64,000 nucleotides of DNA from Bilabrum cf. latius (Eukaryota): NCBI GenBank assembly GCA_965178125.1, contig OZ237753.1, positions 124,001 through 188,000 on the forward strand. The letters run 5' to 3'. The notes under the pieces are model-generated. The model did no database searches. It worked only from the letters and a program-made list of their open reading frames with translations, and had not been told where the DNA came from. Below are positions 1 to 64,000 of this stretch, in pieces. Every line of letters begins with the position of its first letter. Position 1 is the first letter of the stretch. The position numbers and the translations under genes are program-made.

Positions 1-1470
1 TGCGGCATGCTCCCCGAGCTGGATGCGGCGTTTGTGGTCACTCCGGACTGGCTCTTCGCTGGGATGGGGGACACGGAGGGAGCTGCCCTTGCTGCTGTGG
101 GGGAGGCCAGGGGCCGGGACACTGCGGAAGCACCGGGCCTTGCTGCTGGAGGGGAGGGGCACGCCACGGCTGGCGTCACGGACCCGGGCCGCCGCGGAGA
201 ATCGCAGGCCGGTGCGGACAGAGCGCGTACAGCGAGCCTAGGCTCTGCGTACAGCGGTGGCAGCATTGGGGGAACAGCGGGTGAACCGAGCCACCTGAGC
301 ACGGATGGTGGCGAGTCAGCAGGTCCTGGTGCTGGTGCCATAGTGGGTACTCAACGGACAGATTTGTTCTCTGACCAGGAGCTGTGCGACCGCCTGCAGG
401 TGATGAAGGGCAGCGACAGGCGGAGAGTGACCGGAGTGACCATTGGGAGGCGGGCTGCGGCGGAGGGCGGCAGGGGCAGGGGCAGGGGGGCGGGAGGGGG
501 AGACTGCGATGCTGATGCAGGGTACGATGACGACGAAGAGGGGGAATAGGACGACGAGGACGGCAGGATAGCAGCCCGCGGAGGAGACAGCGACGCTGAG
601 GAGGACGCGTTCAGCGAGTCGGGGCAGAGCGGGAGGGGTCGGGAGGGCAGCGGCAGTAGCGGCAGCGGGGGGGCGAAAGCGTCTTCTGCCGACGACTCCG
701 CGGGTGATGGTCAGCTGGAGTTTGAAGCGGCCGGGCTGACTGTGCCCCTGCGGTTCCTGCGGGACACCGCGGGGCCAGGGAACAACAGGTGGGCTGCAGC
801 GGGGGAGAGTGATGGTGCTGGTGGTCGGTCGGGTGTGTCCGGCGGCGGTGGTGCAGCGCACGATGGTGCGGGGGAGGCTCCTCCCGGCGCCGCGCCTTTG
901 GTTGCGGGCGGTGGCGAGTCGCTAGAGGTGCAGGATGCGGTGTCGAGGCAGGCGGACGACGTGGCCGCGTTTGGGGGCCCGCTGGGCATCGAGTACGAGT
1001 ACACTGACTTTCAGTGCAAGGTGGGGATCCACAGGATGCACGAGTTCGGCTGGGACAAGGAGGGGTACGCTCTCGTGCAGAGGTTTCTGCCCGGGCTGGC
1101 CCCCGTGCTTGATTCCGAGTTCTCGTCGGTGTTCGCTCTGACCTACCGAACGTTCGGCGAGAAGGAGGGGGTCGACACGCAGCCGTTCCGGTCCGGGCTG
1201 TGGCACTACGTGATGCGCCTGTTCGGGGTTTGCAACGATGATTTCCCGTACGAGATGGTCAACAAGATCGTGCCTAGGGAGATCAAGGGGTTCGCCAAGA
1301 AGGTCAGCTGCATCCCTTGGCTGATTCGGGAGGCGGATTTCCGGGGCTTCAGCTAGAAGCTGACTTCGGCCGAGAGAATACACGTGATCATGCTGGCAGC
1401 GGAGGCCCGCAAGCTGGCGTCGACTCTGTCGGCGCTGCGTGCCGTGCACAGGCACTTCCGGTCTAGATGA
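1..1470 (+). CDS. SESN: Sestrin (PA26 family), 5'-truncated by window edge; 2 in-frame TAG (547, 1354) read as Gln
   Basis: Frame 1 is open from base 1 to TGA at 1468-1470 except for two TAGs. It begins CGMLPELD (cf. sestrin CGILPEGD). The C-terminal domain FGWDKEGYALVQRF..ALTYRT..VDTQPFRSGLWHY..AERIHVIMLAAEARKLASTLSALRAV matches sestrin, and its last helix lies after the TAG at 1354. Confidence 0.88.
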
Positions 1471-2380
1471 AAGAAGACGAGAGCGCAGTGCAGTGCACTG
1501 GGGCGGCAACGACTGCCAGCCTGAGCGGCTCGGCTGATGGCTTTGGTTGTTTCGAGCTGAATAGTTTTGGTGCTTGAGCGCAGCAGGTCCATCATGTCAG
1601 AATGCGGGGTTGTTTACACGCGCAGATTTGATTCTGAGGGTACAGGTTTTCAGGTGCAAAGCCTGCAGCGGCCGCCGGACGGCAATACAGTGCAGTGCAT
1701 CTATAGGTGCATTGCACTAAAGAGAGACATGCCGACGTCCATGTGTGACCCAAATCAGCCGTACTGCCTTAGCATGGCGTCAAGCCACAACCTGTTGTCG
1801 CCAAGTGGCGATCAAAATGATACATGGGCATGTGCCCCAACTGCAGAGACGTACAGCGTGGGAAAGGACAAGGTGGAGCGGACAACTGTTGCAAATTTGC
1901 GACGTGGGGGAATGGCGTGAGCAATTACTCGGAAGAATTTCAACGAAAATGTGCTTAGTGTAGCGAGCTGTGATACTTCATGAACTGTGTTGATAAATTG
2001 GCTATGGCTGCGCTAGCATGTGGCGATACTGCCGAGAGGTGCGCGTGCCCGACGCGTCGATGAACTCCCTCGAGTCATTTGACTGCTTGCCGCTTGACTA
2101 GAAACAGACAACCCCACCTCGATCTTGCGCGTTATAATACGTAGCGCTGCTGTGGTGATCAGGGGAGTATCGTTACAGCTGACACAAAAAGACATGCTGC
2201 ACGGGTGGATGCAGATGCGCTTGAGTTCATGACCGAGACTGTGCTACTTTCGTCCGCGATTCAGCAGCCATAAGCCTCGCATTGCATTCAATATTGAATG
2301 AACGACCGTTATCCGCTCTCACGATGAAGTTTCTCACTTAGTGGCCTAGAAACTCGAGTTGCGCGTTTTCGTCCCCGCAG

Positions 2381-7598: not shown

Positions 7599-8513
7599 TC
7601 AGACTCCGAATCCTTCTGGCCCATCAGGCCTTCGAGCGTGGGTAGGCTAACTATGTCTCCCCTCTTCATGGCTTGGTGCGTCACCGTCCTATCCATGATT
7701 AGGAGCAGCAGCAGCAGCAACACTACTAGAACCACCCTGGATTCTGCTCCGCCTCCTGGCCCTCCTCTGCTCCTCCCTCTCGGACTGTTCCCTGACCGCG
7801 CCCACGTCCTGTTTCATGGCCTCCAGCTTCCGCAGCATCTGCACCGCCGTGGTCTCCGTGTCGATTGCCTTCACGGCGGCGACGATCTCCTCGTCGTCGG
7901 GGACATCGTCGCCCGCAGTGCCCTGCTCGAGCTGGGCTGCGGAGACGCCGCCACCGCCGACACCCAAGCTTCCTCGCTTCGCCGACTACGAGAATTCGCT
8001 TAGCTATGGTCTGCTAGATCCAGCAAGGAGGTCCTGCTACATGGCATCCAACAAACGCCGCTCCACCGCGGCGATATTGGAGCCGCGCACCTCGCCGCGG
8101 TAGTGGCCGCCTTGCGCAAACACAAACGTTGGCATTGTTGTGATGCCGGCCATTCGAAAGACTGCCTCAGTCCCTTCATCCTGTACGTCAACCCGAGCAA
8201 AGTTGATCGCAGAGCCTAGCATTGACGCCATTCGTTCGAAGGCAGGCTCCACGAATCTGCACTTCGGGCTAGCATCTGGATCGGTGAACAGGGCTACCGT
8301 CGTCTTTTGCTGTGAAAATAAAGTTCGTAGCTACTTAACTGCATCATCACCCCATATTTCGTGTATACTCGGGGGCTTCGCATTATCAACACCTCCGGTT
8401 GCAGCTGTTGAAAAACTTTGTACGGCTCGCGCTTGGAAACAAGCGCTGGCCCTCGTGCCACGCAGAAGATGATTCACAGGTGTAGCAGAGGATACCAACC
8501 ATCTTCTCAGCAT
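7599..8513 (-). CDS. Thioredoxin-fold protein (~304 aa), probable mitochondrial presequence, atypical SPKC active site; 6 in-frame TAG
   Basis: ORF pieces 8331-8606, 8037-8252 and 7689-7967 share one frame and are joined only by TAGs, ending at TGA 7599. Trx-like VALFTDPDASPKCRFVEPAFERMA..FARVDV..GITTMPTFVF. The N-terminus MLRRWLVSS.. is Arg/Ser-rich. An alternative in-frame ATG exists at 8606. Confidence 0.75.
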
Positions 8514-8616
8514 AGCTTTATGGATTCCGTCGCCAGAAATACTGGTGGTGAGAGCCTTGGTGACGAGTGGTACGCGGTCGTACGCATTTTTGCATTTGTG
8601 TGTCATTCAAGGCTGC

Positions 8617-10962
8617 ATGGCCCAAGGCTAGGAAGTAACAGTGCACTTTATCAACAACTTTGATGCGACGGTACGCTTGAGACTGCAAGATGCGACGGCT
8701 GACCCGGATTCCTGGGACCAGCTGCATAGCGCGGTGGCACGGTTGCCTCCAGCCATCCAAATAGTTCATCAGACGTACGATTCCGGCCATCCTTATTATC
8801 TTGCTCGGTATTCTATCCCTGGTGTCGCGTAGAGCGTCGCTAGACTGTTTCGACAGGACAAGACCGTATTGGCCAAGCACCTTGCCTCGGCTCACACATA
8901 CTACAACGCAAATTTGAACCTCTCCGGCTGCGTAAAACTTGCAAACACCGTCATTGGTGCGTGCAAATGGTGCTTAAAATTCGAACCGGGAACGAGTGCA
9001 TGCCATAGCCGGGTGAAAGCTGAGCAAGAGCTGGGCGATGCCGAGCGGTTCAAACTCAAGAGCAGCTGCTTCAGCAGCGCTTCCGGCGGGCCAATAGTCA
9101 GAATGCCAACCCTTACGAGCGACCCCCGTGCCCTGGGCACGTTGCAAGCCTGGCAACAGACCGAAAACTCCCAGGACCCTCCACCCTGTGGTCGATCGAG
9201 AGTTCCAGTCTCGTCAACGAGTGCCCGCGTCTCCAGTTCAACTTCGGCATACGATAGTGGTGGCTCCAGCGGCCAACCCCATCACGTACCATCGGAAACG
9301 CCGTCAGCGGAATCGCGACATACTCATGACTCCGTTGAAGCCATGAGCGCTCTCGCTGAAGGCCTGGGTCTGGGAGAAACAGGAGGCGAGCTCGAAGAAG
9401 GCTAGAGCAGGAACAAGGCATGGGCGGAGAATAAGTGTGACAGCGATAGCGGTAGCGATCCTGAAACTAACACTGTTATCAAAAGAGACAGGCTGGGCAG
9501 GCCCCAGGTGGGGTGGACGTTTGGAAGAGGCTGGGACGACGGCGAGCACATGCACGGCGAAGCCATCGCTCTGGGGGCCGGACCCCGCGCAGGGGACATG
9601 CCCCGGGGGACAGGTGGGGATAGCATGCCGCCCGGTCGAGTCACTAGAACAGGCGCCCCAAGGCCAAGGCCTGGGCAGAAGCGAAGCAGGCCAGGACCAA
9701 GTGCCGGGTCCGGGCCTGCTGCACAGAGGCCTCGGCCTGGGCCTGGGCCTGGGCCTCGGCCAGGCAGTGTCGGAGCCGCGAGCACAAAAAGTAGTCGAAT
9801 CGATACCTCCAAGAAGCAGCAGACCCTGTAGGTGCATCGCACTGCCGCATCGAGACGAGTAACACGGCCTGGGGCACCGAGCGGGCCCCTAGTGCCGAGC
9901 GGCGATCTGCAGTGCGATGCACCCGGTACACCTGGCCAAAGATCGTCAGTAGGCAGCTCATGCGCAGGAGGAGCCCCCGTCCTGTCGGGGCTCAGGTGGG
10001 GCCTCGAGACGGCGGGCACACTCCCTGTGCTAAGGGCCCCCGTCCCTGGACCCCAGCTGGGGGGCGGCAGTGCCCTGGGGGGTGGCCCCGTCATGGGGTA
10101 GGGGTCATCTGGGAAGGTGCGTTGTGACGGGCTGCTGTCAAGGCTGGATCAAAGCAGGTAGTTGCTGTCGGCGCATTCTTCTTCCTCGTCCTCGTCCTCG
10201 TCCTCGTCGTCTGCTTCCGCATCGTCCTCTGGTACTGCCGGTGTTGGTGCTGGTGCAGGCGATGCGCCGGCAGCTGTCCCCGTGGGTTACGTTCGGCTGA
10301 TGCTGCACTCGTGCGGCGGTCTGCAGGTGGTGGAGCCAGTCTTTCGAGAGGAACTGTTGGATGGAGCCTCTTGGGGCGGACCCGCCCGAAACAACGGACC
10401 TGCCCCAAGCAACGAGCGGGCCGGCAAAGCCAGTAGCTGCGAGGCGACTGGTACCAGTGCGTAGTAGAGCCATCGGGTGCTCAAAGAGATTCAGAAAGGC
10501 ATCCGCAAGGCCGCGTGGCGCTGTTTTTAGAGGCTAGAGCTGCGGGTGCGGTACCGGGTGAAGATGGCACGACTGCCCGAGCGTACAAGTGGGGCACCCA
10601 ATGTGCACGACGTTGCCGGTACCGGTCGTCGTGCAGCCAGTGCCAGTGGTGCTACCAGTCCCAAGCAGACCAGCAGGAAAGACCCGCAGGCAAGCGGCGG
10701 CGGGGAGGATGGAGGTGGCGATCGGATCAAGGAGCGGATCAAGGAGCGGATCACAGCTGAGTACACAGTGGTGGGTGCCCGTGTGGCACCCCGCGGGGTA
10801 ATCCTTGCGGGCACGCAGGCCAGGGAACGTTCGGTGGAAGAACAGCGGGCTGCGGAGGGAGAAGCAGTGGACAAATAGACTAGTTGCGGCACTTTCGTTT
10901 CGACTGGTGACAGTGCAGCAGGGCAAATGCTTGGGCCGTCTACCATGCTGCGGTTCGATTGA
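8617..10962 (+). CDS. Hypothetical protein (~781 aa), largely low-complexity; 10 in-frame TAG including tandem TAG TAG
   Basis: Six ORF-track fragments (starts 8641, 8869, 9508, 9832, 10162, 10546) are all in frame 1. ATG 8617 to TGA 10960-10962 contains no TAA/TGA. Confidence 0.7.
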
Positions 10963-11716: not shown

Positions 11717-14700
11717 TCAATTACCGGCCTATTCATTATCACGTGCAGCCGACCCCGCCTTGCTCATGGACCCCTTCTTCAGGAGTGGGTTGCGGCCGCT
11801 GTTGCGCCGGCCTAGGGAGCGGCTCGACGCTGCGGCCCTTCCGAACTCCTTCTTCTTGCCCCCGCGAGCCATGCCCAGGCCCATGGGGTTCATGCCCATC
11901 GGACTCGACTCGCCTAGCTGACGAGATCTGGCAGACCCCACACGCGGGGACGAGGCGCCCACGAGAGGAAACACGCCGCTGGCTGCCGCCCGCACATTCT
12001 CCTTGGTCATCCTGCCGTACTCCTTGGACATCTCCTCGTACGACAGCACGAACTCCTTGAACTGGCCCCTGAGGCGCACCCACGAGTGCCGGTCCAGGCT
12101 CTCCAGTTCCATCATGCCGCGCATGTTCTGCAGGAGAGCAGAGTCGCCGTCCGCGCCGCTGTCCTTGCCAGCCTTGCTGACGTCCATGAGCGGGTTGGCG
12201 CTGTACTCGGCGTTGGACATGTCCACGTCGATCTTGCGGGCGGCCTTGCCCTCCTTGACCTTCTTGATGCTGGTCTGCTGCAGCCGACGGGCGCGGTCCT
12301 TGGCCGTCACCAGCATGTACAGCTCCAGCCCGAAGACCGTGAAGTAGTACGTGATGGATGACATGATGATGAGCATGAGGATGATGGTGATGGCGTCCCG
12401 CTGGTCCTGGTAGCCCTCCTGGTCGAAGCGGCCCGACTCGAGCATGATACCGCCCAGCGTCACGAGGATGGCGCAGAACAGCAGCACCGTCTCCACGGTG
12501 TTCCAGTTCATCACGTTGCTGCCCATCACGCCCATCACGTCCTTGGGATCCACGGCGGCTGCGTTGATGCGCGTGCTGCTGAGGCTGTTCTGGGACCTCT
12601 GGTTGGCCTTGTCCTGCCTCTTGTCCTGCGTGCGGATCGTGTCCCACAGCGAGTAGTACAGCTCAGGGGACCGAGCGCACATGATGAAGGCGGCAGAGCC
12701 CGTGGACTGCAGGCAGCCCGCGCACCCGTTCTATTGGGCACGCGCCATGGACCCGGTGCTGGCCATGCCGGTGGTGTCCAGCAGCTCATCGCGGCGGTTG
12801 GCCGAGTTCTGCGCAGCGGCCTTGTCGATGGCATCCGAGGAGCTGCGGTCCGCCTGGGCCTTGCGGAGACCCTCGTCCACGGACTTGCCGGCCCAGTCGA
12901 TGAGCGTGTCCTGATACTCGGCTGGGGGCATGTACGGGTTGTACTTGACCTGCAGCGTGTAGCACAGGAAGATGACCAGCAGCGTGGCGGCCATCTGGAA
13001 GGACGCGTTGGTGTTGAACATGAGCGAGCAGAAGGCGATGAGGGCCTTGCGCGCGATGATGGTCATGACCCACCAGTAGTACTCGGGCTTGAAGTAGTAG
13101 TACAGACGCTGGAACTTGACACGGAATGCTGCGGCCTGCTTGATGGCCTCGGGATCGGATGACACGAACGTGTATCCGTGTCCCTGGGCCCTCCTGAGCT
13201 GGTCCAGCATGATGGTCTCCTTATAGGTCACCAGCATAAAGGCAACCCACGCGGGGAAGCCGAACGTGTACACGATCAGCGCGATCACGGCGAAGGGCAT
13301 GAGCTGCAGCTGCACGCCGCCCTTCTGTCCGCATGGCTCGAACACGGCCTGCAGGTACTTCTGTCCGTCTGGCGGTGTGGTGGGCACGCAGTTGAACACG
13401 TCCAGGATGGTCTTGGTCTCGTGCAGGTACAGGAAGTACAGCAGCACGATCAGGCCAGCCACCAGAGGAGCGTACCGCTGCCCCTTGGGGTCCTTCTGCA
13501 TGTTGGTGAAGAGCGCGTACAGCCAGAAGGCCGCGAAGGCCACCATGCCCATGGCAATGACGGCCAGAGGCAGCAACACAATGAAGTACCACTTGGTCTG
13601 GAAGGCCAGCTCGGGCACAGTGCACTCGGGGGCCGTGATCTCGAGGTTCAAGTTGAAGGCGGACAGGATGTGGAACAGGTCCTTGAGCATGGGGGGCCAG
13701 CTCACGCGGGCGTTGGCGAAGATGGCCAGCACCTGGAAGTAGTCCACGCCGATGGCGATCAGCGCGATGTTGATCTTGCTGCGGTTCAGCCACAGGCCCA
13801 CGCATCCGGCCGTCATGGCCATCAGCACAAACGCCACGATGAGGATCCACGGGTTGTCGGGGCACTTGACGCACTCCCCCGCGCGCCTGTAGAAGCCCGT
13901 GTCGCAGCTGGCGCACCTGTACATGGGCGCCTTGGAGGCGTACCCTCGGGCGCAGAAGTTGTCGCCCACGCACGCCCACTGCGGCTCGCATGCCACGATG
14001 CACACGTCCCTGGGCCCGCCCTCGTGGATCGCGGGCTCGTTCTCGTCCAGCGGGTGCCTGGGCGCCACCACCTGCCGGCCTGGCGGGCAGACCTGCAGCA
14101 TGTTGAAGTTGGCGGAGTCGGACGAGTTGAGGTTGTAGAAGTTCTCCAAAGGCCTCGGCATGGTGTGCGTGTTGTTGAACTGGTCGTAGCCGTCGCACAC
14201 GCCTCCCTCGGGGCAGGGCAGGCACATCTCTCCCTCCAGACCGAAGTAGTCTCGGTCGCACACCACCTGCACCAGCGGCGGCCTGGTGATGTCTGCGAAG
14301 CGGCGCTGGCCAGCCACCTGCACGGTGATGTTCTTGGGCCCCACTGTGTCTGCGTCCAGGTGGCACTCCAACACGGCCCGCTGGGTGGTGTCCCCGGTGA
14401 ACTCGTCCAGCACCTCGGCCACGGAGCGCTGGGCTCCCTCGGGCAGAGCGCCCGGCATGAAGCACTCCCTTGCTCCGATGTGGATGCGGGACAGGCGCTC
14501 TGCCTCGCTCCAGCCCTCGGTGGATCCCGTGGGTCCGAAGTTCCTGCCCTTGATGGTGATGGGGTGCCTGCCCTCCAGCTCGCGCACCTCCACGGTCTGC
14601 GGAGTCACGGACGTGATGAACGGCCTCGAGTAGTTGACGAGCAGCACGTTGCTACGGATCTCTAGCACGTCCCCGTCAGTCACGCGAGCAGATGGGTTCT

Positions 14701-24924: not shown

Positions 24925-24933
24925 TTGACAGCG

Positions 24934-24983
<50 letters not shown>

Positions 24984-42628: not shown

Positions 42629-43042
42629 GTAAAGCCCGTCTGTGTTGGTGAGAGTCTAATTTATATTCAAGCTTCCGTGGTAGCGAAATCTACCAAGGTT
42701 TTTGCAAATGCGCTGCCTGCCACAATCGGTCTAACAGCAGCTAGCTCTACTCTAATCAATCAAAAGCCATCCACATGACGAGCCAATTCAGATAAAATGT
42801 ATCTTACTGCGTAAACAAGCTACGACAGCTCAAAATCGAGCTGTAAAGTAGCGACTTGTGCACTACTATGAGTGAACTAGAGCGTGGGTGAAATTTGCGG
42901 CCTGACTCGCAGGACCGATATGATTTGTGTCTGTGTGCACGCTACCATAAATCTGCACCGACATTTGGATCTCGAGCGTCACTGAAGACAAGACAAGCAT
43001 ACGTAATTATTCGCGTTGGAGTATTAAGTGTATCCGAGTTTG

Positions 43043-52441: not shown

Positions 52442-53123
52442 TGATTAGCAAAAATGATCGGGTGATAACGCTCAATCTGAATTAGCCGGAGTCGTACAGC
52501 GGCCGCTCTGCGTCAGTGCAGGCTCAGCTGTCATCATGCGGGTAATTGCGGGGAGGATGGCCCCTTCGCTCGTGCAGGCTATGGGTATCACCAGTTGGAT
52601 GACAGTAAAGCTAAACCAACTGGAAAAAGTCGGCCGCACCTTGTGCCTGGGCTTGGTGGTGGATCTCGCAGTGGAGTACTCTGGAGACACTGCCCAGCCC
52701 CTGCATCCTGTAGATCTAATGCTTGCTCGGACTTCAGTAACAAATGTGTAGACCCACCGGTTAATGATGCTGAGAAAGAGAGAGACGGGGCACAGGACCT
52801 GGGGTAGACTTTCGCCGCGGAGTCACCTGGTCTACCGGGTCGCTTCTCGCGACCCCTGCCGGCACGGCCGGTGTGCCCCGTCGTCTCAGGGAAACGGCTC
52901 CCTGCCAATGGGTCAATCAATTCACACAAATCATTACATCCCCAGGCAGCCCCCTTGGCTGCCTCCCCCTTGCACAGCCGCGGGTGGGTGGGAGAGAAGA
53001 TAGCTACTGGCTACAGCTGCCTCTGTGTGTCTTTGCTAATCCTGGCAAGTACAGAGTCTGATCTCTCATATCTCAGTGTAGGCTCGAACCGCAATGACAC
53101 CTCGCTGGTCGATCACAGGACCC

Positions 53124-54163
53124 TCAAGTGGCGGCCCCAACCGCCCAGGGGACTGCTGCGGCCTCCACCTTGGCGAGCAGCTCGTCAAAGTCAGTCCGGA
53201 ATTGGGCCCTTTCAATCGCTTTTGCATCTGGCTTCTAGTCTGCTCGTGCACGCTCGCAACCGTGTACCTGCAACACGAGCGACCAGTGAAGGGAGGCATG
53301 GGAGGAATGGGTGGTGCATTGTTTTGAGATACATCATTGGAATCACGGATTGCATGGACACGATAGCAGCAAACTCGAGCATAATGCTGTACGGAATGAT
53401 TCGAGGTCCTACAATCGCAGCCTGGTGTCCTCTGGTCCTCTGTCCGAATGGGCAGCTGCAGCTACGCCGTGCAGTCGAGTGAACTCACCGCGCGAGCAAT
53501 CCGCATCCACGAGGCCGCCTTGGTGAACGGGTCATCTGCAGAAGGAGCATCTTCGAGCTTCCACTGCATGACCGTTCCGATGCTCCGCGAGGCCTCCAGT
53601 CTCAGCTCCTTGGTGGGTGCGGCTGTGGCGGAGGGCATGGGAGACGCAAGGGTGCCGTTGCTGCTGCTCGTCTTGCAGAACCGAGCGTTGTGCTCGGCGT
53701 CCGAATCGTCATCGCTGAATGCAGCGTCTAGGTCATCTTCGTCCATGCCAGCAGCATCTCCTTCTCGACCGCTAGCTGAGGATGCTGGTACAGAAGCTGC
53801 TGTTGTGTCTAGCGCCGCCTCCTCCATACTATCGTCTAAGTTTCTCTGATGTGCAGGCAGTTGAGAAAGAGCAACCTAAGTGGGTTTACCGCCTTTGCCT
53901 TGAATGCTAGCGACGCGCGGCACGCAGTACAGCACGGCAGTCCCGTGTGGGCGATCGAATTTGAAGCCCCGCAACTCTCGACCGCGGAAGAATGCCATGT
54001 GCTCGCCAGGCAATTTGCCAGGCAATTTGCTGACATCCTATGCATCAAAGTACGTATTTACTTTTGCTGGTCCATCAAAGTTAATTCTGCACGGCAGTAC
54101 ATGGGCCACTCCACCCTCTCCGCCGTCGTCCAAAGCTGCTGTTGGAATAACCAAACTCGTCAT
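53124..54163 (-). CDS. RNASEH2C: Ribonuclease H2 subunit C (~272 aa); intron 53268-53488; 3 in-frame TAG
   Basis: With TAG=Q: AHVLPCRINFDGPAKVNTYF..AFFRGRELRG..WKLEDAPSADDPFTKAASWMRIARA|VH. The splice restores the family-typical terminal A-V/I-H. Confidence 0.82.
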
Positions 54164-54341
54164 GCTAACCAACTGCGGTCCTAGCTTAGGTAAGGATACA
54201 AAATTTACAGAATGCTAGTCTGAATGCCAAAGTAAGCTACCAATTTTGAATTCAAGGGCAATAATGGCGACGGCTCCGTCGCAGCATTGTTGCGTGCCAT
54301 TTATCATAGATATTGTGTCCGTTGTTAGCACATAGGCTGTC

Positions 54342-54890
54342 ATGGAATTGCTTGACGATGAAACTGTCTCTTCGCTGCGGGAGGTATATACATAGTTTTC
54401 TGGTTCCTCAGGCTCACTCGGTCCCGATGAGCTCGGGCTAGTGCTTCGGGCTATTGGTGTGGCCAAGCTTACGAGAGCAGAGATTGACGAGATGCTATCA
54501 CAGTTAGATGCATCCGGAAAGGGTCAACTGGACTTTCCAGCGTTCGTGCATTTGATGTGCTCGTAGCTGGAGGATAGACCCGCCGAATTTGAGCTCAGTG
54601 AAGCCTTCACCGAACTAGATTGCGATGGTGACGGCTGCATCAGTGTGTAGGACCTAGTTCAAGCAGCAGCAGTCGCCGGAATAGAAGGCATAGACGTAGA
54701 TGCAGCTGCAAATATATTAGGCGAAGCGAAGATGCCCCCCAGGCCTGAAAACACCCGTGGTGCTGGCAGAAAGAGCGTTGCAAGGAGCGTGCGATCGGTG
54801 CGAAGTGTTGCAAGTTTGGCGGCTGGCGATGCCAGACTGGCCACGACTGTCGGAAAAGGGGAGCTTCGTGAAGTTCTTAAGGGTGTGTGA
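54342..54890 (+). CDS. Calmodulin-like EF-hand protein (182 aa); 3 in-frame TAG; absent from the ORF track
   Basis: MELLDDETVSSLREVYT(Q)F..DELGLVLRAIG..EIDEMLSQLDASGKGQLDFPAFVHLM..ELSEAFTELDCDGDGCISV(Q)DL..-TGA. Confidence 0.85.
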
Positions 54891-55624: not shown

Positions 55625-58600
55625 TTACTCCTCACCATCTAAAATAGGATCGTCCTCGTCCAGGAAGGCAGGCCTCCCACCCTCTCCATAGTCCTCCGCC
55701 AGACCCCCCACGGGCAGGCCCAAGTCAGTCTCCACCTCTTCCAGCCACCGACTCAGGTCAGCAGTTGACAGCTCAGCCGCCCGGATGGACTGCTCCGTGG
55801 GCCGGAAGTTGTCTTGCACCAGACGGTCCAGCCGCTTCTGCAGGGTGGCCATGCTAAGCGGCCGCCTGCCGCGCCGCGACTACCCGCAAGTTTGACCGCC
55901 CTACAGGTGGTCAGAGCCGCTATCCCCCGTGACGCCCCGGAACGGCGTCAGCGCGCTCCTCACCATGTGCTCCCGCCCCTAGCCGTGTCCCGGGCCGCCC
56001 AGCCCCATCGAATTGCCGGGTACACCGGTGGACTGGCCCGCGCTGGCGTCCTGCCTCGCCTATGACCCGCCGCGCATCATGGCTAATCGAGCCGATCCAC
56101 CGGTGGATCCAAGGCCCCCCGCTCCCGCGCGCCGAGATCCCGCCAGCGCCGACCGCCCGGTACGCAGTGCCGAGCGCGGCGTGACAAACGGAGAGGGGCC
56201 GGCGCCGTTCCGGCCTCGTCCCTTCCGCAGCAAGGTGGACAAAGGCGTCCTAGGCGGGGCTGCGGAACGCGCGACGCCTGGAGTGGCTGCGCCGTGTCTC
56301 TGCGGCGTGAACGGATCCGCCGCATGTTGCGCGGCGCCACCTCCACTGCCACCTGCTTGTGCCCCCAGCATCTTGGTTGCCTCCGAGTCCCCGAAGAGCT
56401 TGCTCACACCCTTCTGAAGCTCCTGCGAGTGCCGCCGGCGCAGGGGCGTGGACGGCAGCCGGCTGCCGCCCATACCCTCGCTCGTTCCCTGGGCGTCGCC
56501 GGAGCCGCCCCATCCGGCCGGATCTGCAGCCTCCCGCGCATATGCCCCTGCCGCCGTCGCAGAGGCGTCGTCCCACCCGATGCCCCCTCCTCCCAGACCT
56601 CCTGCTGTGCCTCCGTCTCCACCATCGTCGCCGCCCTAGGGCTGGCCATTGGCGTGTCTGGCGAAGCTGTCGGCGCTGTTGCCCCCGGCCCCGCCCCACA
56701 CGCCGTCGTCGCCGGTGGCGGCACTCAACCCAGCCCCCTTGCCAAAATCGGCCCCCGCGTCTGCCGCGGGCTGCGGCGCAGGTTCCGCCGCCGCAGCTCG
56801 CGCGGCGCCCCCCTTTCCCTGATCCGCCTCGAGCGGGATCCCGGTCACTCCCTGGCCGCGTGCCTCGCAAGCGCTGCCCGTGGCACCGCCTGCATCGCCA
56901 TCTTCGGACACGGTCGACATCCCCTCGAGCATGCTAACCAGCGCGTGCCTTCGCCTGCGGCAGGCCTGCACCAGGTCCTGTGCCTCGCCCACTTTCTTCT
57001 CCAGCTCCGGTATTTCCACGTCGAGCAGCTGCTAGGCCCTCCGATCGTCCTCGGCCTCTGAGGCTGACAGCCTTCCCTGCAGCAGCCTCCTGGCCTCCTC
57101 AATGTGCCTCGCCCTGGCGCTGATGCGGGCCATGCCGGCCTCAAGCTCCTCGATCTGTTCCCCAAGATCCGATCCCCAGTCACCCCGCACCCGGAGCTCA
57201 ACGTCGTCCGCCATCCCACGCGCCGCGTGCACCAGCGGACCCAGCTGCCTCAGCAGGAACAGCCTGCGAGCCCTCAGCTCAGCTAGGCCGGCGGCCAGCC
57301 CCTGGGCGTAGCTGACCCGCTGCTCCGCCCCCCGCAGCAGCACCTCCGCTTTCTCGGGGTACTTGTCGACCTCTTCCACAGCCGAGTCCGGCTGCACCCC
57401 CTTGGCCTCCAGCTCTGCGGAGCCGTCTCCGCCGAGAGTGCGCTGCGCCTCCGGCGCGAACCGCTGGAAGATCTCCAGCGGTGTCTCGCTGGGTGGCAGG
57501 CCCGTGAGGTCGAGGAGGGCCTGCACCTGCTGTTCCCTGGTCTTGGGGTCCTCCGTCTTGCGGTGGTCGTAGCCCCCCGCGATGGCGGAAGCGATCATCC
57601 AAGCATCCGTCTCCGCCTCTGTGAGCCCAGTGCCACCCCCTGCCGCCAGCGCCAGCCGCGGGGGCATCTTGCTGAGCCGCGCCATGGCCTGCCTCCTCCG
57701 TGTTAACCTGCTAAACCGCTTGTTGCTGCGGGCCGCGGGCGGCAGATTCGCCGCCGTGTGTTCCCCGGCCCCTTTCCCCCTGTCCTCCTCGTCCTCCTCC
57801 ATCCTCCTTGCGGCGTCCTGCTCCGCCGCCTCGTCGTCCTCCGCGAGCTCCCTGTCCTCCTTGGTCAGCCCGCCCACGGAGAGGCCCGCGTCCTCCGCGT
57901 CCTCGCCGTAGTCGCCCCCGGCCAGCGCCCCGAGGCCCAGTACCGAACGGAGGTCGATCTCGTCCCCTAGATCCACGGCCTCGGCCCCGGCCTCGGACAG
58001 GGCGTCGCCACCTGCAGAGAGCAGCCCGAGGGCCTTGCCCATTGCCTCATCCGATCGGAGCTGCAGGTCCATGCCCGACCCATGGTGCCTCACGGTCAGC
58101 AAGTCGTCGATCGAGGCGGCCCGTCCCGTCCCTCTGGGAGCAGCGGCACCAGAGGCCGCGGCCTTCCCCGCCGCCTCCGCCCTTCGTTTCAGCTCCGAGT
58201 CGTTCTGGGAGCCTTGTTCCCTGGATCGGACGGCTCGCAGCAAGGAGCGCATGGTGGCTTCGCTCTCGACCGCCACGGGTAGCTGGGGGCTGCCCAAAGC
58301 AGCGCCGAGGGGAGACCCTGAGGATCTACCGGTGGACGGCGCCGCGCACGCGCTGCGCCAGCGGAACCTACCGAGGCCGTCTTCCACCGATGAGCCCTCT
58401 CTATGCCAGAGGGCGGCCTCTGGGTCGTCCTCGGCGGCGGGTGCTTGCGGAACCGGCGCCGCGAGGACCCGCACGGTGCGGCTTGCCACTCCTGCACCTG
58501 GCGTTCCTGCTGATCCCGCAGCGGGAATCGCACCCGCGATGCACTGGTGCGGCGAGGGCGCCACCGCCACCGCCAGGCACTGCATCTTGGCGCTGGCCCC

Positions 58601-60823
58601 AACGAGCGCTCCCGTGATTTTTGAGGTTGCAACCGCCAGCGAGGCCCCCACCTCGGCCGCCTCGAGGAGCGCTCGACGAACTGCCTGCGTGAACCCCAGA
58701 TCCGCGATGAACATTCCTCGAGCGCACGAGACCAGCAGCATGTCGCGGCTGTGCGGGGCAGCTTGCAGCCCGGCGCTGGGCCAGGAGGGGCCAGCGGAAC
58801 CTGGTTGCGCGGCGCCGCCGAAATCATCCCTGTCGTGCCAGGCCTCCGCGACCTCCGCCGGTGCAGGCGCCGACGTGATGCGGAACCAGGCGCCGCCGCG
58901 GTAGGACCACGCGTCGATCTCGCGCGAGGTGGCCCCCGACTCATCGCCCCGGCGCGCACGCTCCGTGGCAGCCGCTGCGGCCCTCGCGTTTGCGACCAGG
59001 GTGGCCTCCCCGATGCCACCGTAGGACGTGCCCGTCATCACGACCGCGCCCTGTCTTGCGGAACCGGAACCGTCGGATTGCGCGGCGCCAAAGCGGCGGA
59101 GCAGCTCCTCGGACCTCTTCATCTCCTGCTGCACGTCGATGCGGCCTATGGTGCCTGCTCCTGCTCCTGCTCCTGCTCCTGCCGCCCCGGTTGGCTGGCC
59201 TGCGTCCAGGCCGTAGAGGTCTTCCTGCGCGTCGGATGATCCGATCCCTCCCCCTGATCCGATCATGTCCACTTCTTCCGCCCGCATGGCTGCTTCTGGC
59301 AGGGCCGCGTACGTCAGTAGCGGAACCAGCGGCGCCGCGCCGCAGTACGCGCGGAGCTCGCCTCGCCTGGTTGCAACCACCAGGGCGGGAAGGGGGCAGG
59401 CCTCGGAGCCGACCGCAAGCACAGACGACAGCTCGTCCCCCACCAGGGGGTGCGAATAGTCCCCAGCACCCCCGGGGATTTCCCCTGCGAACGGCAGGGG
59501 GCCCTGTAGCGCCGGCACCAGCGCGGCGACGTCCGACCAGTTCCCAGACGAGGTTCCGCGGCGCGGCGCCGCGATCGCGGCAGCGTGGGTCGAGAGGCGC
59601 ACTGGCTGGTACTCACGCAGCCGCAGGGTGGTTCCCGCGCCGCCACCACCACCACCGCTGCCCACGGCGGCCTGTGCCCCCGCCGCCTCGCCGACCCCGT
59701 CGCCTGCCTCGCTCGATTTCGATTCCGAGGCCCCCACACCCCCTTTGCCCGTGTCGCCATCGCCCGCCACGCCGCTCTACCCCCCGGCTGCCGGGTTGCT
59801 TCCGCCCTCTTCTCCAGCGCCGAGCCCATCACCATCACCACTCGCCACATCGTATCCATCACTCGACACGACGCCCGGCAGCTCCTCCTCCACGAGCTCA
59901 AAGAAGCTGTCCATCCAGTCGAGCGCATCTTTTATGCCCTGCTCGCTTCCCAGGGGCACGTCGTCCCCCTCTTCCAGTCGGCGAACGTTCGTTTTGAGCT
60001 CGGAGCGAAGGCCCCTCCACTCCGCGTCCGTGATGGTGGCACCCGGCGGCAGCAGCGGGCAAGCGGTCATGACGGTGCCGTCGGCGCACGCGAAGAACAC
60101 CGCCATCTGTTCCCAGCCCCTCTCGGCCCCAAAGCAGAAGTCAACCAACTTCCCCGCACCGCCCTGCGCGAACTTGCTCCTGTCGAACCGATACTCGCCT
60201 ATGGGAGCGAGCACATCGTCGTCGCTTGCATTGCTCTCTTCCGCTTCGTCGTCGTCGGCATCCAAGGGCGCGAAGAAGAGCAGGCTTTCTACCGTGAGGA
60301 CAGTTAGAACTGTTGGGTCTAGGGGGTGCCACCGCACTCGCAAGATCCTGCAGTGCTCCCCGAACCGAGAGGCTGGCGATCCCAAGTGACGCAACGTTGC
60401 CGGAATTGAAGAGCCCCGAGGGCCGTCGAGTGCTTCCAGAGCACCGGGCTTTATCTATACTACAGAGACAAAATGGGGGCCGCTCACGGCGATGGCCCTT
60501 CCGTCTGGTTGGAACTCGAGGGAGGCAGCGTTCAACCATCGCTGGTCGAGCCCAGGTTCTGTCGCGATCACGTGCGTCCACTGCGGTTCGACTTGCTTCG
60601 TAGCCTGGTTATGATCGTATGATTGCTCAATGAAACGGCTACCATTGCTATCAACAGACACCTTCGGCGAATCAGAAGCACACGAGGTTGAACTGGCTCG
60701 TGCTACAAGCGGCATCGGAACATCGTGACCGCACTGGGGTAGAAGCACCTCTGCTCCACTCTATGGACATCTGCACAGCAGTTCCAGCCGAGGCCCAAGT
60801 GATGGGCGTACGATACCCTCCAT
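55625..60823 (-). CDS. NUP88: Nup88/Nup82-like nucleoporin (~1732 aa) with long low-complexity inserts; ~9 in-frame TAG; ends TAA
   Basis: Six ORF fragments lie in one frame. The N-terminal propeller motifs (LEFQPDGRAIAVSG, RVRWHPLDPTVLTVLT, LVDFCFG..GWEQMAVFFACADGTVMTACPLLP) and a C-terminal coiled-coil region resemble Nup88/Nup82. Confidence 0.62.
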
Positions 60824-60926
60824 GACAAGAGATGAGAGAGACGTCCATCCGGCCCACAAGCCGCGAGTTGGTTCCGGTTTCGATGTGGCTGGTGAGGTCG
60901 AGCAAAGATAGAATCTTTGCTGGACG

Positions 60927-62093
60927 ATGCGCTCTACGTTGCAGCTGGTAGCCGCGCTGTGTGTGCTGATCCGGACAAACGCATGGCTATCGACTGATGG
61001 GAATCAGGTCATCAACGCAACAACAACGTCGCCAGTGCACCTGAATAGCATCAACTGGTACGGCCTTGAGTCGACAGACTTCTGCGCTGGTGGTTTGCAG
61101 ATGCGCAATGCATCGTACATTGCGCAGACGATTGCCGACTTGAAATTCAACTCAGTCCGTGTGCCCATGTCTACTGAGCTGATCCTAACGAACCCGAAGA
61201 TTCCAGGGTTTGTGACGACCGGCGAGCCCCGGCTAGCAGGCAAGCACGGGTTAGACTGCTTGGACCTCGTGGTTGATGAAATCACGTCTAAAGGCGTCAT
61301 GGTGGTGCTCGACTTGCACATGCTGGACGGTGGCTGGTGCTGCTCGGGCGACGACGAGAACGGTCTTTGGTACAACACGCGGTGGTCTGAAACAGACTGG
61401 CTGAATTCCCTGTCGCAAGTCACTGCAAGATTTGCTAGCAACGAGATGGTCATCGGGGTAGACATCAAGAACGAGCTGCGGGAAGCCACCCTGAACGGCA
61501 AGACCATCACCCCGCAGTGGGGAAATGGCGACCCCAAGACCGACTGGGCCATGGCTGCGGAACGCGGCGGCGCCGCGGTGCTTGCCGCCAACCCCAACGC
61601 ACTCGTCATCGTGGAGGGCCTATCCTACGCCGGCGACCTCACTGGAGTGGCCAAGCACCCCATCCACCTCCCGAGCGACCACAGGCTGGTCTACGAGAGC
61701 CACGACTACCAGTTCAGCAGTACTTGGAACGACACCTACGACGGCTATGCAGCCCACCTGGACGAGCGGTGGGGCTACATATCCGAGCCGGGTCACGCCT
61801 ACACTGCCCCCCTGTGGATGGGCGAGACGGGCACGTGCAACGCCCAGGACGACGGGTGCATCGCGCCCAACGCGCAAGGGGTGGGCAAGGGCCTGTGGTG
61901 GCAGTTCCTGATGAGGTACATCGGGGAGAGGAAGGACCGGATCAGCTGGGGCTACTGGGCCATCGACGGCACTTAGTCCACTGGGCACGGCCGCACGTGG
62001 AACAAGACGGAGGGGTACGGCATCCTGACGAGGGAATGGGACCAGGTGGCGCTACCCGGGCTGTACAAGGACCTAGTGCAGATCATGTCCTGA
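60927..62093 (+). CDS. Secreted glycoside hydrolase family 5 (cellulase-like, 388 aa); TAG at 61974 read as Gln
   Basis: Signal peptide; NWYGLE, FNSVRVP, KNELR (acid/base Glu), HDY, WMGETG (nucleophile). The C-terminal YWAIDGT(Q)STGHGR..EGYGIL..W motif continues past the TAG to TGA at 62091. Confidence 0.9.
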
Positions 62094-62781: not shown

Positions 62782-62798
62782 CCTCTTCTATGCGACCT

Positions 62799-64000
62799 TC
62801 ATGTTCCCAGTCTGATCCCCGCCTCCGTCACATGCCCAAACAGCAACTTGCCCAGTCCCAATCTGCACAGCACACACTTCCACCTCTCCGTCGGATCCAG
62901 CCTCCCCAGCAGCGACCCCATGGCAGGTATGGCACCTGCCTACCTCAGGACTACCACTAGCTCACTCTGGCCCGGAAACTCGTCCTGCTGCAGCCCGCGC
63001 GCCAAACCCAGCAGCAAGGCATCCGACTCCATCAGCACAGAAGTAACCTTCCCACCAGTTCGGAACAAGTGCTTCAGCGAGTAAAGAACCGCAAAGGCTG
63101 CGACCCCGTCGTTTCCAAGCAGAATTCGAGCCGTCTCATCTGCAAAGCCCTCCGCCGAAACCATAAGCTGCTTTACCTCTTCCGTGCCTTCCGCCATTGC
63201 GCGCAATGCGCGTCCCACAAACCCGAGGGTTTCGGGTGTCCCGACACCGAATGCCCTGGCCAGCCCCCTGACCAGCCCCTCCGTTGAGACCACGGATTTG
63301 GTGGCAGCCGCGAATGCCGCGTTGCTTATCAACATCACGCACACAGTCTTTGCGGCCGCAAATAGCGACTCCCCGTCCTTTTCCTAAAGCACCCGTGACA
63401 GACCGTCAAGTATTCCGGCTTCCAACAGCGCCGTCACCTCGTCCTCATCAGCATATATACACAGGTTGGCGGTGCTCCTTGCTGCAGACTCCAGCGCCTC
63501 GCCATCTTCCTCCCGAAGGACTCTCGCCAGGCCCTCCACCAAGCCTTTTGCAGATAAGAGGACCCTGCGTACCCCTGCGTCACAAGCAGTCATGGCGAAC
63601 ACCGCCCCGCAACCCCCCTCAAGCTCAGATCCACTGCCATCTTGGAGCACACGCGCGAGACCCCTAGGGATATCCGATGCAGCCAATACTGTCCCGTGTC
63701 CCGTGTCACTGTGGCAGATGTTCTATATCGTTCTGGTGACAAACTCTAGCGCCCGACCCTCCGAAATCATCACCCCTCTCTCCAGTCCCTTCAGTGCTTC
63801 CTTGTTCCTGACCATCCGTTCCCTGCCCTCGGGACTGCGCCCTGACATAGCATAGGCTGCAGCAGCTGCATCCTTAAACAGCTCGCCATCTGCCTCCCGC
63901 AACACGTGGGCCATACCATCGATCATCGCCGGGTCGCTCGCCGCCGCTCGGCAATCTCCACCATGCAGGCACATCTGGTACATTAGATCCAGTGAGACCT
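62799..64000 (-). CDS. Armadillo/HEAT-like repeat protein, 5' part outside the window; 3 in-frame TAG
   Basis: ORFs 63723-63983, 63384-63686 and 62940-63344 share one frame and are joined by TAGs. Recurrent GL..GLARVL.E.DGE helical repeats. The first TGA is at 62799; the 3' end is uncertain. Confidence 0.65.

What the first reader, a model, noticed from the sequence alone, without database searches (positions are those of the whole stretch)
1..64000. Non-standard nuclear genetic code: UAG encodes glutamine
Seen: every recognisable gene in the window contains in-frame TAGs (about 75-80 by manual count). Conserved domains continue after them, e.g. the last sestrin helix, the SLC12 RGNQKSVLTF end, the GH5 C-terminus, EF-hands, RNASEH2C and the YR catalytic residues. 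No in-frame TAA/TGA was found in these genes. TAGs sit in Gln runs and opposite Gln codons in paralogs. Known: UAG=Gln with UAA as stop equals NCBI table 15 and has been reported for few eukaryotes (e.g. the fornicate Iotanema, some ciliates). Inference: the gene content looks stramenopile/bicosoecid-like, a group where I know of no such code, so this may be an independent, undescribed reassignment.
Basis: partly seen in the sequence, partly recalled or inferred. Interest (0 to 1): 0.97.

Follow-up and report, generated by a model that had tools for sequence, protein, structure and literature searches.

The report
UAG read as glutamine, stramenopile nucleus
In this stretch of a protist's nuclear genome the usual stop codon TAG sits inside nearly every gene and is evidently read as an amino acid, most likely glutamine, a rare kind of genetic-code change that has not been reported for this branch of life.

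Summary
Fifteen ORFs carry 79 in-frame TAGs and no internal TAA or TGA; 12 end in TGA, 3 in TAA, none in TAG. In 8,269 codons called coding from GC3 periodicity alone, in-frame TAG is as common as out-of-frame TAG, while TGA and TAA are almost absent. Spliced contigs from three other public runs keep the TAGs unchanged, so editing, introns and assembly error are excluded at 14 of the 21 sites in bases 1-11700. The SLC12 C-terminal motif, present in 97 of 120 homologues, lies beyond all three of its TAGs.

Glutamine rests mainly on two 3,500-residue paralogues. TAG faces CAG or CAA in 6 of 8 differing columns. CAG/TAG exchanges occur at the synonymous rate (5/131), not the non-synonymous rate (4/779, P=0.0045). 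Cross-species columns only say "polar".

One gene tree places the organism beside Cafeteria. Seven literature searches found no nuclear code change reported in stramenopiles. tRNA-Gln(CUA) and eRF1 could not be examined because no genome is held. This is a new lineage for a known code variant (NCBI table 15).

The parts
1..1470 (+). sestrin (PA26) gene, 5'-partial; in-frame TAG at 547 and 1354; stop TGA at 1468
   Evidence: Pfam PF04636 E 4e-43 over residues 331-485. Aligned to human sestrin-2 to within 2 residues of its end, with TAG 452 opposite Arg. TAG 1354 unchanged in X5 contig 669-1581.
1773..6738 (+). SLC12 cation-chloride cotransporter gene; exons up to 1916, 2381-2487, 2777-2860, 3308-3930, 4036-6738; in-frame TAG at 4225, 5335, 6547; stop TGA at 6736
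   Evidence: Pfam AA_permease and SLC12; PDB NKCC1 E 2e-130. Four GT..AG joints in X5/X6(/X7) contigs, none in X1. The spliced frame is open. The C-terminal RGNxxxVLT motif lies after all TAGs and is present in 97 of 120 homologues.
7599..8606 (-). thioredoxin-like gene; TAG codons starting (minus strand) at 8333, 8039, 8006, 7988, 7691, 7649; stop TGA
   Evidence: Pfam PF00085. X5 contig 6969-8612 has 0 other letters. Database fragment P0148 (99% identical) ends just before TAG 306. A relative's fragments P0155 and P0149 break at TAG 190.
8545..10962 (+). 805-codon ORF of no known family; 10 in-frame TAG (8629, 8830, 9403, 9829, 10099, 10159, 10462, 10465, 10528, 10876); stop TGA
   Evidence: Weak GC3 periodicity. 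Four of its TAGs lie in X5 contigs without change.
11717..22315 (-). giant TIG/IPT-cadherin membrane protein, paralogue A (3532 aa); TAG at 22261, 21556, 20338, 19561, 19315, 12733, 11731; stop TGA
   Evidence: Pfam TIG and Cadherin; codon-wise comparison with paralogue B.
28343..38914 (-). giant TIG/IPT-cadherin membrane protein, paralogue B (3523 aa); TAG at 36832, 36517, 36187, 35941, 30226; stop TGA
   Evidence: Pfam. 95.1% DNA identity to A over 9.5 kb. TAG faces CAG/CAA in the other copy at 6 columns.
39799..41519 (+). DIRS-like mobile element remnant: RNase-H-like ORF and tyrosine-recombinase ORF; TAG at 40021, 40264, 40654, 41025; ORF ends TGA and TAA
   Evidence: Pfam Phage_integrase at residues 314-393, downstream of the TAG at residue 265; coordinates. 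The 'DIRS-like' label is my reading of the RNase-H-like motif together with the recombinase, not a tool result.
43028..46300 (+). armadillo-repeat RING-finger gene (the 5' half of the ORF may not be coding); 9 TAG (43379, 43820, 44162, 44270, 44282, 44327, 44339, 44585, 45017); stop TAA at 46298
   Evidence: Pfam Arm and zf-RING_2. The coding GC pattern collapses after the TAA.
47526..50030 (-). 834-codon ORF of no known family; 10 in-frame TAG; stop TGA
53066..54466 (-). RNase H2 subunit C gene; TAG at 54217, 54040, 53878, 53464; stop TGA
   Evidence: Pfam PF08615 over residues 121-327, spanning TAG 143 and 197.
54342..54890 (+). calmodulin-like EF-hand gene; TAG at 54393, 54564, 54648; stop TGA
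   Evidence: Pfam EF-hand families. PDB calmodulin E 1e-24, with the alignment running through all three TAGs.
55625..60859 (-). 1744-codon ORF of no known family; 9 in-frame TAG; stop TAA at 55625-55627
   Evidence: GC3 periodicity. The coding pattern drops after the TAA.
60822..62093 (+). GH5 cellulase gene; TAG at 60909 and 61974; stop TGA
   Evidence: Pfam PF00150 E 5e-34; PDB CelE2 and endocellulase E1.
62799..63998 (-). armadillo-like repeat gene, 5'-partial at the window end; TAG at 63725, 63386, 62942; stop TGA
   Evidence: At the repeat position of TAG 205 the sister repeats have Q, R, Q (read).

Best explanation
The window is nuclear DNA of a GC-rich, intron-bearing heterotrophic stramenopile related to, but outside, the sampled Cafeteria group. 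Its cytosolic ribosomes read UAG as an ordinary sense codon, most likely glutamine. UGA (mostly) and UAA still terminate translation, which is the NCBI table 15 pattern.

Shown here: UAG lies in frame in essentially all genes, stays UAG in spliced transcripts, and translation must pass it to reach conserved C-termini.

Inferred from the paralogue comparison: the amino acid is Gln.

Inferred from what is known of other UAG-only codes (Panek et al. 2017, PMC5304391, passages read): the mechanism is a tRNA-Gln with anticodon CUA, one base away from tRNA-Gln(CUG), which pairs with UAG but not UAA, together with an eRF1 that no longer recognises UAG efficiently. TAG then spreads mainly by C-to-T transitions in CAG codons, chiefly in weakly biased genes.
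For: (1) ORFs open only when TAG is sense.

(2) In coding windows defined by composition alone, in-frame TAG is 18-20 against 43 in two out-of-frame frames, so it is not avoided. TGA is 2-3 against 291 and TAA 0-1 against 19.

(3) GC3 stays high after internal TAGs but collapses after the two terminal TAAs.

(4) Contigs of runs X5, X6 and X7 skip four GT..AG introns of SLC12 that run X1 retains. They carry the TAGs at 4225, 5335 and 6547 with 0 other letters. 14 of the 21 TAG sites in 1-11700 lie in listed X5 pieces, and the only difference reported anywhere is 10808 C>T.

(5) The SLC12 terminal motif lies beyond all its TAGs (97 of 120 homologues have it). The last sestrin helix lies beyond TAG 452.

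(6) Gene ends: 12 TGA, 3 TAA, 0 TAG of 15 ORFs.

(7) Glutamine. Of 10 paralogue columns with TAG, 2 are TAG/TAG, 5 TAG/CAG, 1 TAG/CAA, 1 CCG and 1 ACA. First-position C/T exchange is 5/131 for CAG/TAG, 7/149 for synonymous Leu (P=0.78) and 4/779 for non-synonymous pairs (odds ratio 7.7, P=0.0045). GAG has 0 TAG partners in 192 columns and AAG 0 in 96. The TAG share of Gln-type codons rises together with CAA in low-GC3 genes.

(8) Independent assemblies. A 99%-identical database fragment stops exactly before TAG 306. A 74%-identical relative's two fragments, which probably lie on one 3365-nt contig (the longest contig listed for both), break exactly at TAG 190.
Against: No tRNA gene is in the window and no genome is held, so neither tRNA-Gln(CUA) nor eRF1 was seen.

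There are no peptide data.

Cross-species columns at TAG sites are variable and do not single out Gln. A rough BLOSUM62 sum over 14 columns ranks K 5.7, A 2.4, Q 1.8, R 1.6, S -0.6, E -0.8. Individual columns: sestrin TAG faces Arg in human; EF-hand TAGs face L, K, A in calmodulin; the relative has E, S, A, T at four Trx TAG sites.

The Gln inference rests on 8 differing columns of one paralogue pair. TAG sites may be biased towards weakly constrained positions, which would inflate non-synonymous exchange there.

UAA as a stop rests on 3 ORF ends and on absence in about 15,000 codons of a GC-rich genome.

The RNA nature of X5-X7 is the tool's guess (for X5 it says 'probably DNA'). I infer RNA from the spliced joints.
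Confidence: 0.8

Rival explanations
1. UAG is a sense codon but stands for another polar residue (Lys or Glu most plausibly), not glutamine.
For: The rough BLOSUM sum over 14 cross-species or repeat columns ranks Lys first. The relative has Glu at Trx TAG 201. Sister ARM repeats have mostly Glu at the position of ARM-RING TAG 664. UAG=Glu and UAA=Lys are known in a ciliate (PMC10553269, abstract in the listing).
Against: Between the paralogues, TAG never faces GAG, GAA, AAG or AAA; it faces CAG or CAA in 6 of 8 differing columns. The CAG/TAG exchange rate equals the synonymous rate and is 7.7 times the non-synonymous one (P=0.0045).
Confidence: 0.09
2. UAG is ambiguous: sense inside genes but also a terminator near transcript ends, as in Condylostoma-type codes.
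For: This cannot be excluded from 15 ORF ends. TIG_A has a TAG only 4 codons before its TGA, where termination and read-through cannot be told apart.
Against: 0 of 15 ORFs end in TAG, and 12 TGA plus 3 TAA suffice. TAG 1124 of SLC12, 62 codons from the end, must be read to reach the conserved terminal motif.
Confidence: 0.05
3. Both UAG and UAA are glutamine (table 6 type), and UAA is merely rare because the genome is GC-rich; UGA is the only stop.
For: TAA is the rarest of the three triplets (387 against 881 TAG and 1766 TGA on both strands). Only 3 ORF ends use it.
Against: If TAA:CAA followed TAG:CAG (70:479), about 14 in-frame TAA would be expected for the 94 CAA, and none is seen (my arithmetic). 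There is 0 TAA in the periodicity-defined coding windows, against 19 out of frame. The coding GC pattern ends at the TAA of ARM-RING and of the 1744-codon ORF, with further stops 26-33 codons on. Reading TAA as sense lengthens no major ORF by more than about 70 codons.
Confidence: 0.04
4. The TAGs are not translated: pseudogenes, assembly or sequencing errors, RNA editing to CAG, or unrecognised introns.
For: None found. This is the default suspicion for in-frame stops.
Against: Only TAG interrupts the frames, never TGA or TAA. Four runs with the unspliced form and three with spliced contigs agree letter for letter at the TAGs. The introns that are removed do not contain the TAGs. Purifying selection is evident between the paralogues: 356 synonymous against 312 non-synonymous codon differences, and in many 250-codon blocks of the conserved part synonymous outnumber non-synonymous by 4 to 12 times.
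Confidence: 0.01

Closest known systems
Iotanema spirale (Fornicata) nuclear code: UAG=Gln, UAA kept as stop (Panek et al. 2017, PMC5304391; passages read)
   Same: Only UAG is reassigned, to glutamine. UAA is retained as a terminator. The predicted mechanism is a tRNA-Gln(CUA) derived from tRNA-Gln(CUG).
   Different: Unrelated supergroup (Metamonada against a stramenopile). Iotanema was known from transcripts only; here genomic DNA with introns and spliced contigs are both available. Here UGA, not UAA, is the main stop (12 against 3 ORF ends).
Ciliates with UAG-only=Gln: Hartmannula sinica, Trochilia petrani, Protocruzia tuzeti (McGowan et al. 2024, PMC11687900; passages read); NCBI table 15
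   Same: Same codon table. In those species in-frame UAG also sits largely at Gln positions.
   Different: Ciliate macronuclear, AT-rich gene-sized genomes that terminate mostly at UAA (93.5-100% of aligned ends in that paper). The present genome is about 60% GC and uses mostly UGA.
UAR=Gln codes (table 6): many ciliates, Hexamita, ulvophycean algae, Streblomastix, Amoeboaphelidium (listed in PMC11687900)
   Same: Stop-to-glutamine reassignment via near-cognate tRNA-Gln.
   Different: In those codes UAA is reassigned too. Here UAA is absent in frame and ends genes.
UAG-only reassignments to other residues: rhizarian exLh (Leu), Scotinosphaera (Ser), some phyllopharyngean ciliates (Leu) (PMC11687900 and PMC5304391 passages)
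   Same: UAG and UAA are uncoupled.
   Different: A different amino acid. Leu is disfavoured here by the cross-species columns (score -15) and by the absence of TTG or CTG partners of TAG.
Cafeteria roenbergensis / C. burkhardae, the nearest named relative by SLC12 (42% identity over 82% of the query)
   Same: GC-rich (my recollection, not from a call) heterotrophic stramenopile. Its SLC12 orthologues group with the query (support 1.0).
   Different: Its SLC12 proteins are full length (1131 and 1245 aa) in database records. That would be expected of standard-code gene calling (the code used is my assumption, not shown by a call), and it suggests that the change is not shared by that clade.

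Membership tests
NCBI table 15-type nuclear code (UAG=Gln; UAA and UGA stops) | UAG occurs in frame inside conserved protein-coding genes and is present as UAG in mature mRNA | tested here: met
   79 in-frame TAG in 15 ORFs. TAG is not depleted in frame in composition-defined coding windows. TAG is unchanged in spliced contigs. Conserved C-termini lie beyond TAGs.
NCBI table 15-type nuclear code (UAG=Gln; UAA and UGA stops) | UAG is decoded as glutamine | tested here: met
   Indirect. TAG faces CAG or CAA in 6 of 8 differing paralogue columns. CAG/TAG exchange is 5/131, like synonymous Leu 7/149 and unlike non-synonymous 4/779, P=0.0045. There are no GAG or AAG partners. Cross-species columns are inconclusive (K, A, Q, R, S, E all compatible). 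No peptide evidence.
NCBI table 15-type nuclear code (UAG=Gln; UAA and UGA stops) | UAA remains a stop codon | tested here: met
   3 of 15 ORFs end in TAA. 0 in-frame TAA in coding windows. The coding signature ends at TAA. Based on one 64-kb window only.
NCBI table 15-type nuclear code (UAG=Gln; UAA and UGA stops) | UGA remains a stop codon | tested here: met
   12 of 15 ORF ends are TGA. In-frame TGA is 2 (one true stop, one segment edge) against 291 out of frame.
NCBI table 15-type nuclear code (UAG=Gln; UAA and UGA stops) | UAG is not used as a terminator | tested here: met
   0 of 15 ORF ends in this window. The rest of the genome was not seen.
NCBI table 15-type nuclear code (UAG=Gln; UAA and UGA stops) | A cognate tRNA-Gln with anticodon CUA | not testable with these tools
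   ARAGORN found 0 tRNA genes and Rfam gave 0 matches in the window. No genome is held.
NCBI table 15-type nuclear code (UAG=Gln; UAA and UGA stops) | eRF1 N-domain changed so that UAG is no longer recognised (GTS, NIKS, YxCxxxF region) | not testable with these tools
   eRF1 is not in the window and no genome is held. The motif list is taken from PMC5304391.
Table 6-type code (UAA and UAG both Gln) | UAA also occurs in frame as a sense codon | tested here: not met
   0 in-frame TAA, against about 14 expected from the TAG:CAG and CAA counts (my arithmetic).
Ambiguous stop/sense codes (Condylostoma or Parduczia type) | The same codon is both sense and the regular terminator | tested here: not met
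   No ORF in the window ends in TAG. The sample is small (15 ends).
Bicosoecida / Cafeteria-related stramenopiles (organism placement) | Groups with bicosoecids in molecular phylogeny | tested here: inconclusive
   One gene only. In the SLC12 FastTree (42 sequences, 862 columns) the query is sister to a clade of two Cafeteria proteins and three unnamed ones, with support 1.0. No rRNA or second marker is in the window, and the sestrin search found nothing.

The most novel reading that the evidence does not exclude
This is the first nuclear genetic-code change in stramenopiles. It would be an independent, undescribed UAG-only to glutamine reassignment in a Cafeteria-related flagellate lineage. 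That lineage includes at least one further species (the 74%-identical relative whose gene fragments break at the same TAG). It is GC-rich with UGA as the main stop, so it runs against the usual picture of stop reassignment in AT-rich, UAA-terminating genomes. Genome and transcript data already exist in public runs filed under several organism labels, so the tRNA and eRF1 changes that uncouple UAG from UAA can be examined directly.
Probability: 0.55. Interest if true: 0.8.

Novelty: new member of a known kind. Interest (0 to 1): 0.7.

Why it matters
UAG and UAA almost always change meaning together. According to the 2024 paper read here (PMC11687900), only a handful of eukaryotes have UAG alone reassigned. 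A new, phylogenetically distant case in a GC-rich genome with introns would be a further independent test of how eRF1 can lose UAG but keep UAA, and of whether a single anticodon mutation in tRNA-Gln is enough.

There is also a practical side. Standard-code gene callers cut this organism's proteins at every TAG: database fragments P0148, P0155 and P0149 end or start at TAG sites. Its proteome in public databases is therefore fragmented. The same sequence also turns up in runs filed under other organism labels.

Tried and rejected
Tools that were unavailable or empty:
- Whole genome: none is held.
- tRNA and Rfam scans of the window: nothing.
- The look-up of sequencing runs: no RNA holder listed. 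Parts of 1-11700 without cover in X5-X7 are not interpreted.
- Third word-index search (sestrin C-terminal region): no hit.
- Related loci: metagenome contigs with P0149 and with SLC12 residues 287-741 found no relative. Genome contigs with the TIG C-terminal region found none. So no DNA of relatives could be compared codon by codon.
- Supplementary files of papers were not consulted.

Cross-species columns at TAG sites are all variable positions and were not used to decide the residue:
- SLC12
- sestrin
- GH5 (alignment ends before the TAG)
- TIG/cadherin repeats
- Trx
- EF-hand

The Gln-run argument was dropped: 8 of 70 TAGs have a Gln neighbour, against about 6 expected by my estimate.

Self-BLAST found no further paralogue pair usable for codon comparison.

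Rejected readings: pseudogenes or errors, editing, and intron-borne TAGs (see rivals).
Full report
**What the window is.** It is 64 kb at about 60% GC with one 200-N gap at 51355-51554. It holds eukaryotic nuclear-type genes:
- sestrin
- an SLC12 cotransporter with spliceosomal introns
- a thioredoxin-like protein
- two giant tandem TIG/cadherin membrane proteins
- an ARM-RING protein
- RNase H2 subunit C
- a calmodulin-like protein
- a GH5 cellulase
- a tyrosine-recombinase element
- several long ORFs of no known family

No whole genome is held. There is no tRNA or Rfam match in the window.

**Is TAG really in frame, beyond chance?**
- Under the standard code the longest ORFs are 2193, 1904 and 914 codons. 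With TAG read through they become 3540, 3525 and 1792.
- Reading TAA through changes nothing. Reading TGA through opens only spurious GC-rich frames.
- Twelve long ORFs hold 70 in-frame TAGs and three more hold 9.
- These ORFs were delimited by TAA and TGA, so I made a control that ignores stops. Windows of 300 nt were called coding, with strand and frame, from GC3 periodicity alone.
- In the resulting 8,269 codons there are 20 in-frame TAG, 3 TGA and 1 TAA. The two out-of-frame registers of the same DNA hold 43 TAG, 291 TGA and 19 TAA.
- One 324-nt segment was put on the wrong strand. Without it the in-frame counts are TAG 18, TGA 2 (the sestrin stop and a segment edge) and TAA 0.
- So TAG is not avoided in coding frames at all, while TGA is depleted about 50-fold or more.
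- The coding GC pattern continues after internal TAGs (for example GC3 0.83 to 0.90 and 0.92 to 0.87 in SLC12). It collapses after the TAA that ends the ARM-RING gene (0.64/0.42/0.65 to 0.41/0.49/0.49) and the 1744-codon ORF.

**Are the TAGs in mRNA?**
- The stretch 1-10000 is held by 14 public runs of 9 studies, and none is on record as RNA.
- I laid four of them on 1-11700. Run X1 covers the stretch unspliced.
- Contigs of X5 and X6 skip 1917-2380, 2488-2776, 2861-3307 and 3931-4035, all with GT..AG ends. X7 shows the last joint.
- Joining the exons gives one open SLC12 frame with the typical N-terminal transmembrane start. I therefore take these contigs to be RNA-derived, although the tool only guesses their kind (for X5 it says 'probably DNA').
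- X5 record 11 (3308-3930 plus 4036-6969) has 0 other letters and contains the TAGs at 4225, 5335 and 6547.
- Listed X5 pieces cover 14 of the 21 TAG sites in this stretch. The only difference reported in any run is 10808 C>T in X6.
- Editing to CAG, intron-borne TAGs and assembly error are thus excluded at the covered sites.

**Must the TAGs be translated?**
- The SLC12 protein ends ...FLRGNQKSVLTFMS. A motif RG[NG]x(2-4)[VI]L[TS] stands in the last 40 residues of 97 of 120 homologues. In the window it lies beyond all three TAGs.
- Sestrin aligns to human sestrin-2 up to residue 478 of 480, across TAG 452.
- Pfam stretches of RNase H2C, SLC12, the cadherin, Arm and EF-hand domains span TAGs. 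The recombinase domain lies downstream of one.

**Which amino acid?**
- Cross-species columns are unhelpful, because the TAGs sit at variable positions:

| TAG site | Residues opposite it |
|---|---|
| SLC12 350 | K8 L5 R4 N2 D2 E2 I V in 25 homologues |
| sestrin 452 | Arg in human |
| EF-hand (three sites) | L, K, A in calmodulin |
| Trx (six sites) | mixed |
| TIG/cadherin | repeat matches, uninformative |

- A rough BLOSUM62 sum over 14 columns ranks K, A, Q, R, S, E close together. It clearly disfavours L, Y, W and other hydrophobic residues.
- The informative evidence is the pair of 3,500-residue paralogues, which are 95% identical in DNA over 9.5 kb.
- Of their 10 TAG columns, 2 are TAG in both. 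In the other 8 the partner is CAG five times, CAA once, CCG once and ACA once.
- Among all 676 differing codon columns, 356 are synonymous and 312 non-synonymous.
- Restricting to first-position C/T exchanges, CAG/TAG differ in 5 of 131 columns. That is like synonymous CTR/TTR leucine (7 of 149, P=0.78) and unlike all non-synonymous C/T pairs (4 of 779; odds ratio 7.7, P=0.0045).
- TAG is the second commonest partner of CAG, after CAA. GAG (192 columns) and AAG (96 columns) never face TAG.
- TAG therefore behaves as a synonym of CAG.
- The TAG share of Gln-type codons is 3-4% in the high-GC3 giants and 19-33% in low-GC3 genes, in step with CAA. This fits a minor synonymous codon.

**Stops.** Of 15 ORFs, 12 end in TGA, 3 in TAA and none in TAG. 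If TAA were used relative to CAA as TAG is to CAG, about 14 in-frame TAA would be expected (my arithmetic), and none is seen. This is the table 15 pattern. The passages of PMC11687900 describe table 15 as UAG=Gln with UAA and UGA stops.

**Who is it?**
- The SLC12 search gives five hits at E 1e-170 to 1e-177, far ahead of the rest (1e-119 and weaker).
- The named ones are Cafeteria roenbergensis / burkhardae, at 42% identity over 82% of the query.
- In a FastTree of 42 sequences and 862 columns the query is sister to that clade with support 1.0. Ochrophyte sequences stand elsewhere in the tree.
- This is one gene only. No second marker could be obtained.
- The Cafeteria proteins are full length in the database. 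That fits standard-code gene calling, though which code was used is my assumption. The change therefore seems not to be shared by that clade.

**Other assemblies and a relative.**
- A full HMMER search with the Trx-like protein found P0148. It is 99% identical and spans residues 214-305, ending just before TAG 306. It comes from a 30.6-kb contig of another source.
- It also found P0155 (74% identical, ending at residue 189, just before TAG 190) and P0149 (starting at residue 193). Both list a 3365-nt longest contig, so they probably lie on the same contig.
- So standard-code gene callers cut this organism's genes at TAG. A related species appears to have an in-frame standard stop at the same place, though its codon could not be read.

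**Literature.**
- Seven full-text searches found no nuclear code change in a stramenopile.
- The passages read list UAG-only=Gln for Iotanema spirale, Protocruzia tuzeti and two phyllopharyngean ciliates. They list UAG=Leu for a rhizarian and UAG=Ser for Scotinosphaera (PMC11687900; PMC5304391).
- Three other hits were checked by passages (PMC12152300, PMC12560768, PMC12063673). They concern mitochondria, ciliates or Heterolobosea.
- Papers outside this library, and supplements, were not seen.

**Mechanism.** By analogy with the cases above (PMC5304391 passages), I infer a tRNA-Gln(CUA) one mutation away from tRNA-Gln(CUG). It reads UAG but not UAA. It would work together with an eRF1 that has lost UAG recognition. 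Neither could be checked here.

**Verdict.** The finding is real and ordinary explanations are excluded. UAG is sense (about 0.97), most likely Gln (about 0.85), with UAA and UGA as stops (about 0.9). The code variant itself is known. Its occurrence in a stramenopile appears new.

Noticed in passing
window 11470-20966 and 28087-37592: A 9.5-kb segmental duplication at 95.1% identity holds two giant (about 3,525-aa) TIG/IPT-cadherin proteins with a multi-pass membrane C-terminal part. The N-terminal ~500 residues have diverged strongly (124 + 89 non-synonymous differences in the first 520 codons). The rest is nearly identical, which suggests gene conversion or different selection on the tip.
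   Followed up: partly
window 39799-41519: An RNase-H-like ORF followed by a tyrosine-recombinase ORF. I read this as a DIRS-like retroelement remnant. It carries in-frame TAGs, so the element either uses the host's code or is decaying.
   Followed up: partly
window 60822-62093: The GH5 cellulase has an N-terminal hydrophobic segment. Its best solved relatives are bacterial or archaeal endoglucanases (CelE2, Acidothermus E1, a Pyrococcus-type enzyme). This is possibly a horizontally acquired gene.
   Followed up: no
window 10141-10530: All four laid runs show very high summed contig depth here (158-448, against about 5-60 elsewhere), with many loose ends. This is probably a GC-rich low-complexity repeat shared with many other loci.
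   Followed up: no
window 6969: The RNA-type contigs of the convergent SLC12 (+) and thioredoxin-like (-) genes both end at base 6969 (X5 records 11 and 12). The two transcripts appear to abut or overlap at their 3' ends.
   Followed up: no
window 45338-45682 and 44270-44340: Recent internal tandem duplications in the ARM-RING ORF. Armadillo units are 99% identical over 219 bp at a 126-bp offset. A duplicated 19-residue unit carries two TAGs in each copy.
   Followed up: no
The organism may travel as a co-cultured or contaminating flagellate. No attempt was made to identify the samples.
   Followed up: no
window 25135-26046 (+), 39106-39735 (-): Two ORFs with coding-like GC3 (0.71 and 0.70), no Pfam match and no TAG. 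They were not characterised.
   Followed up: no
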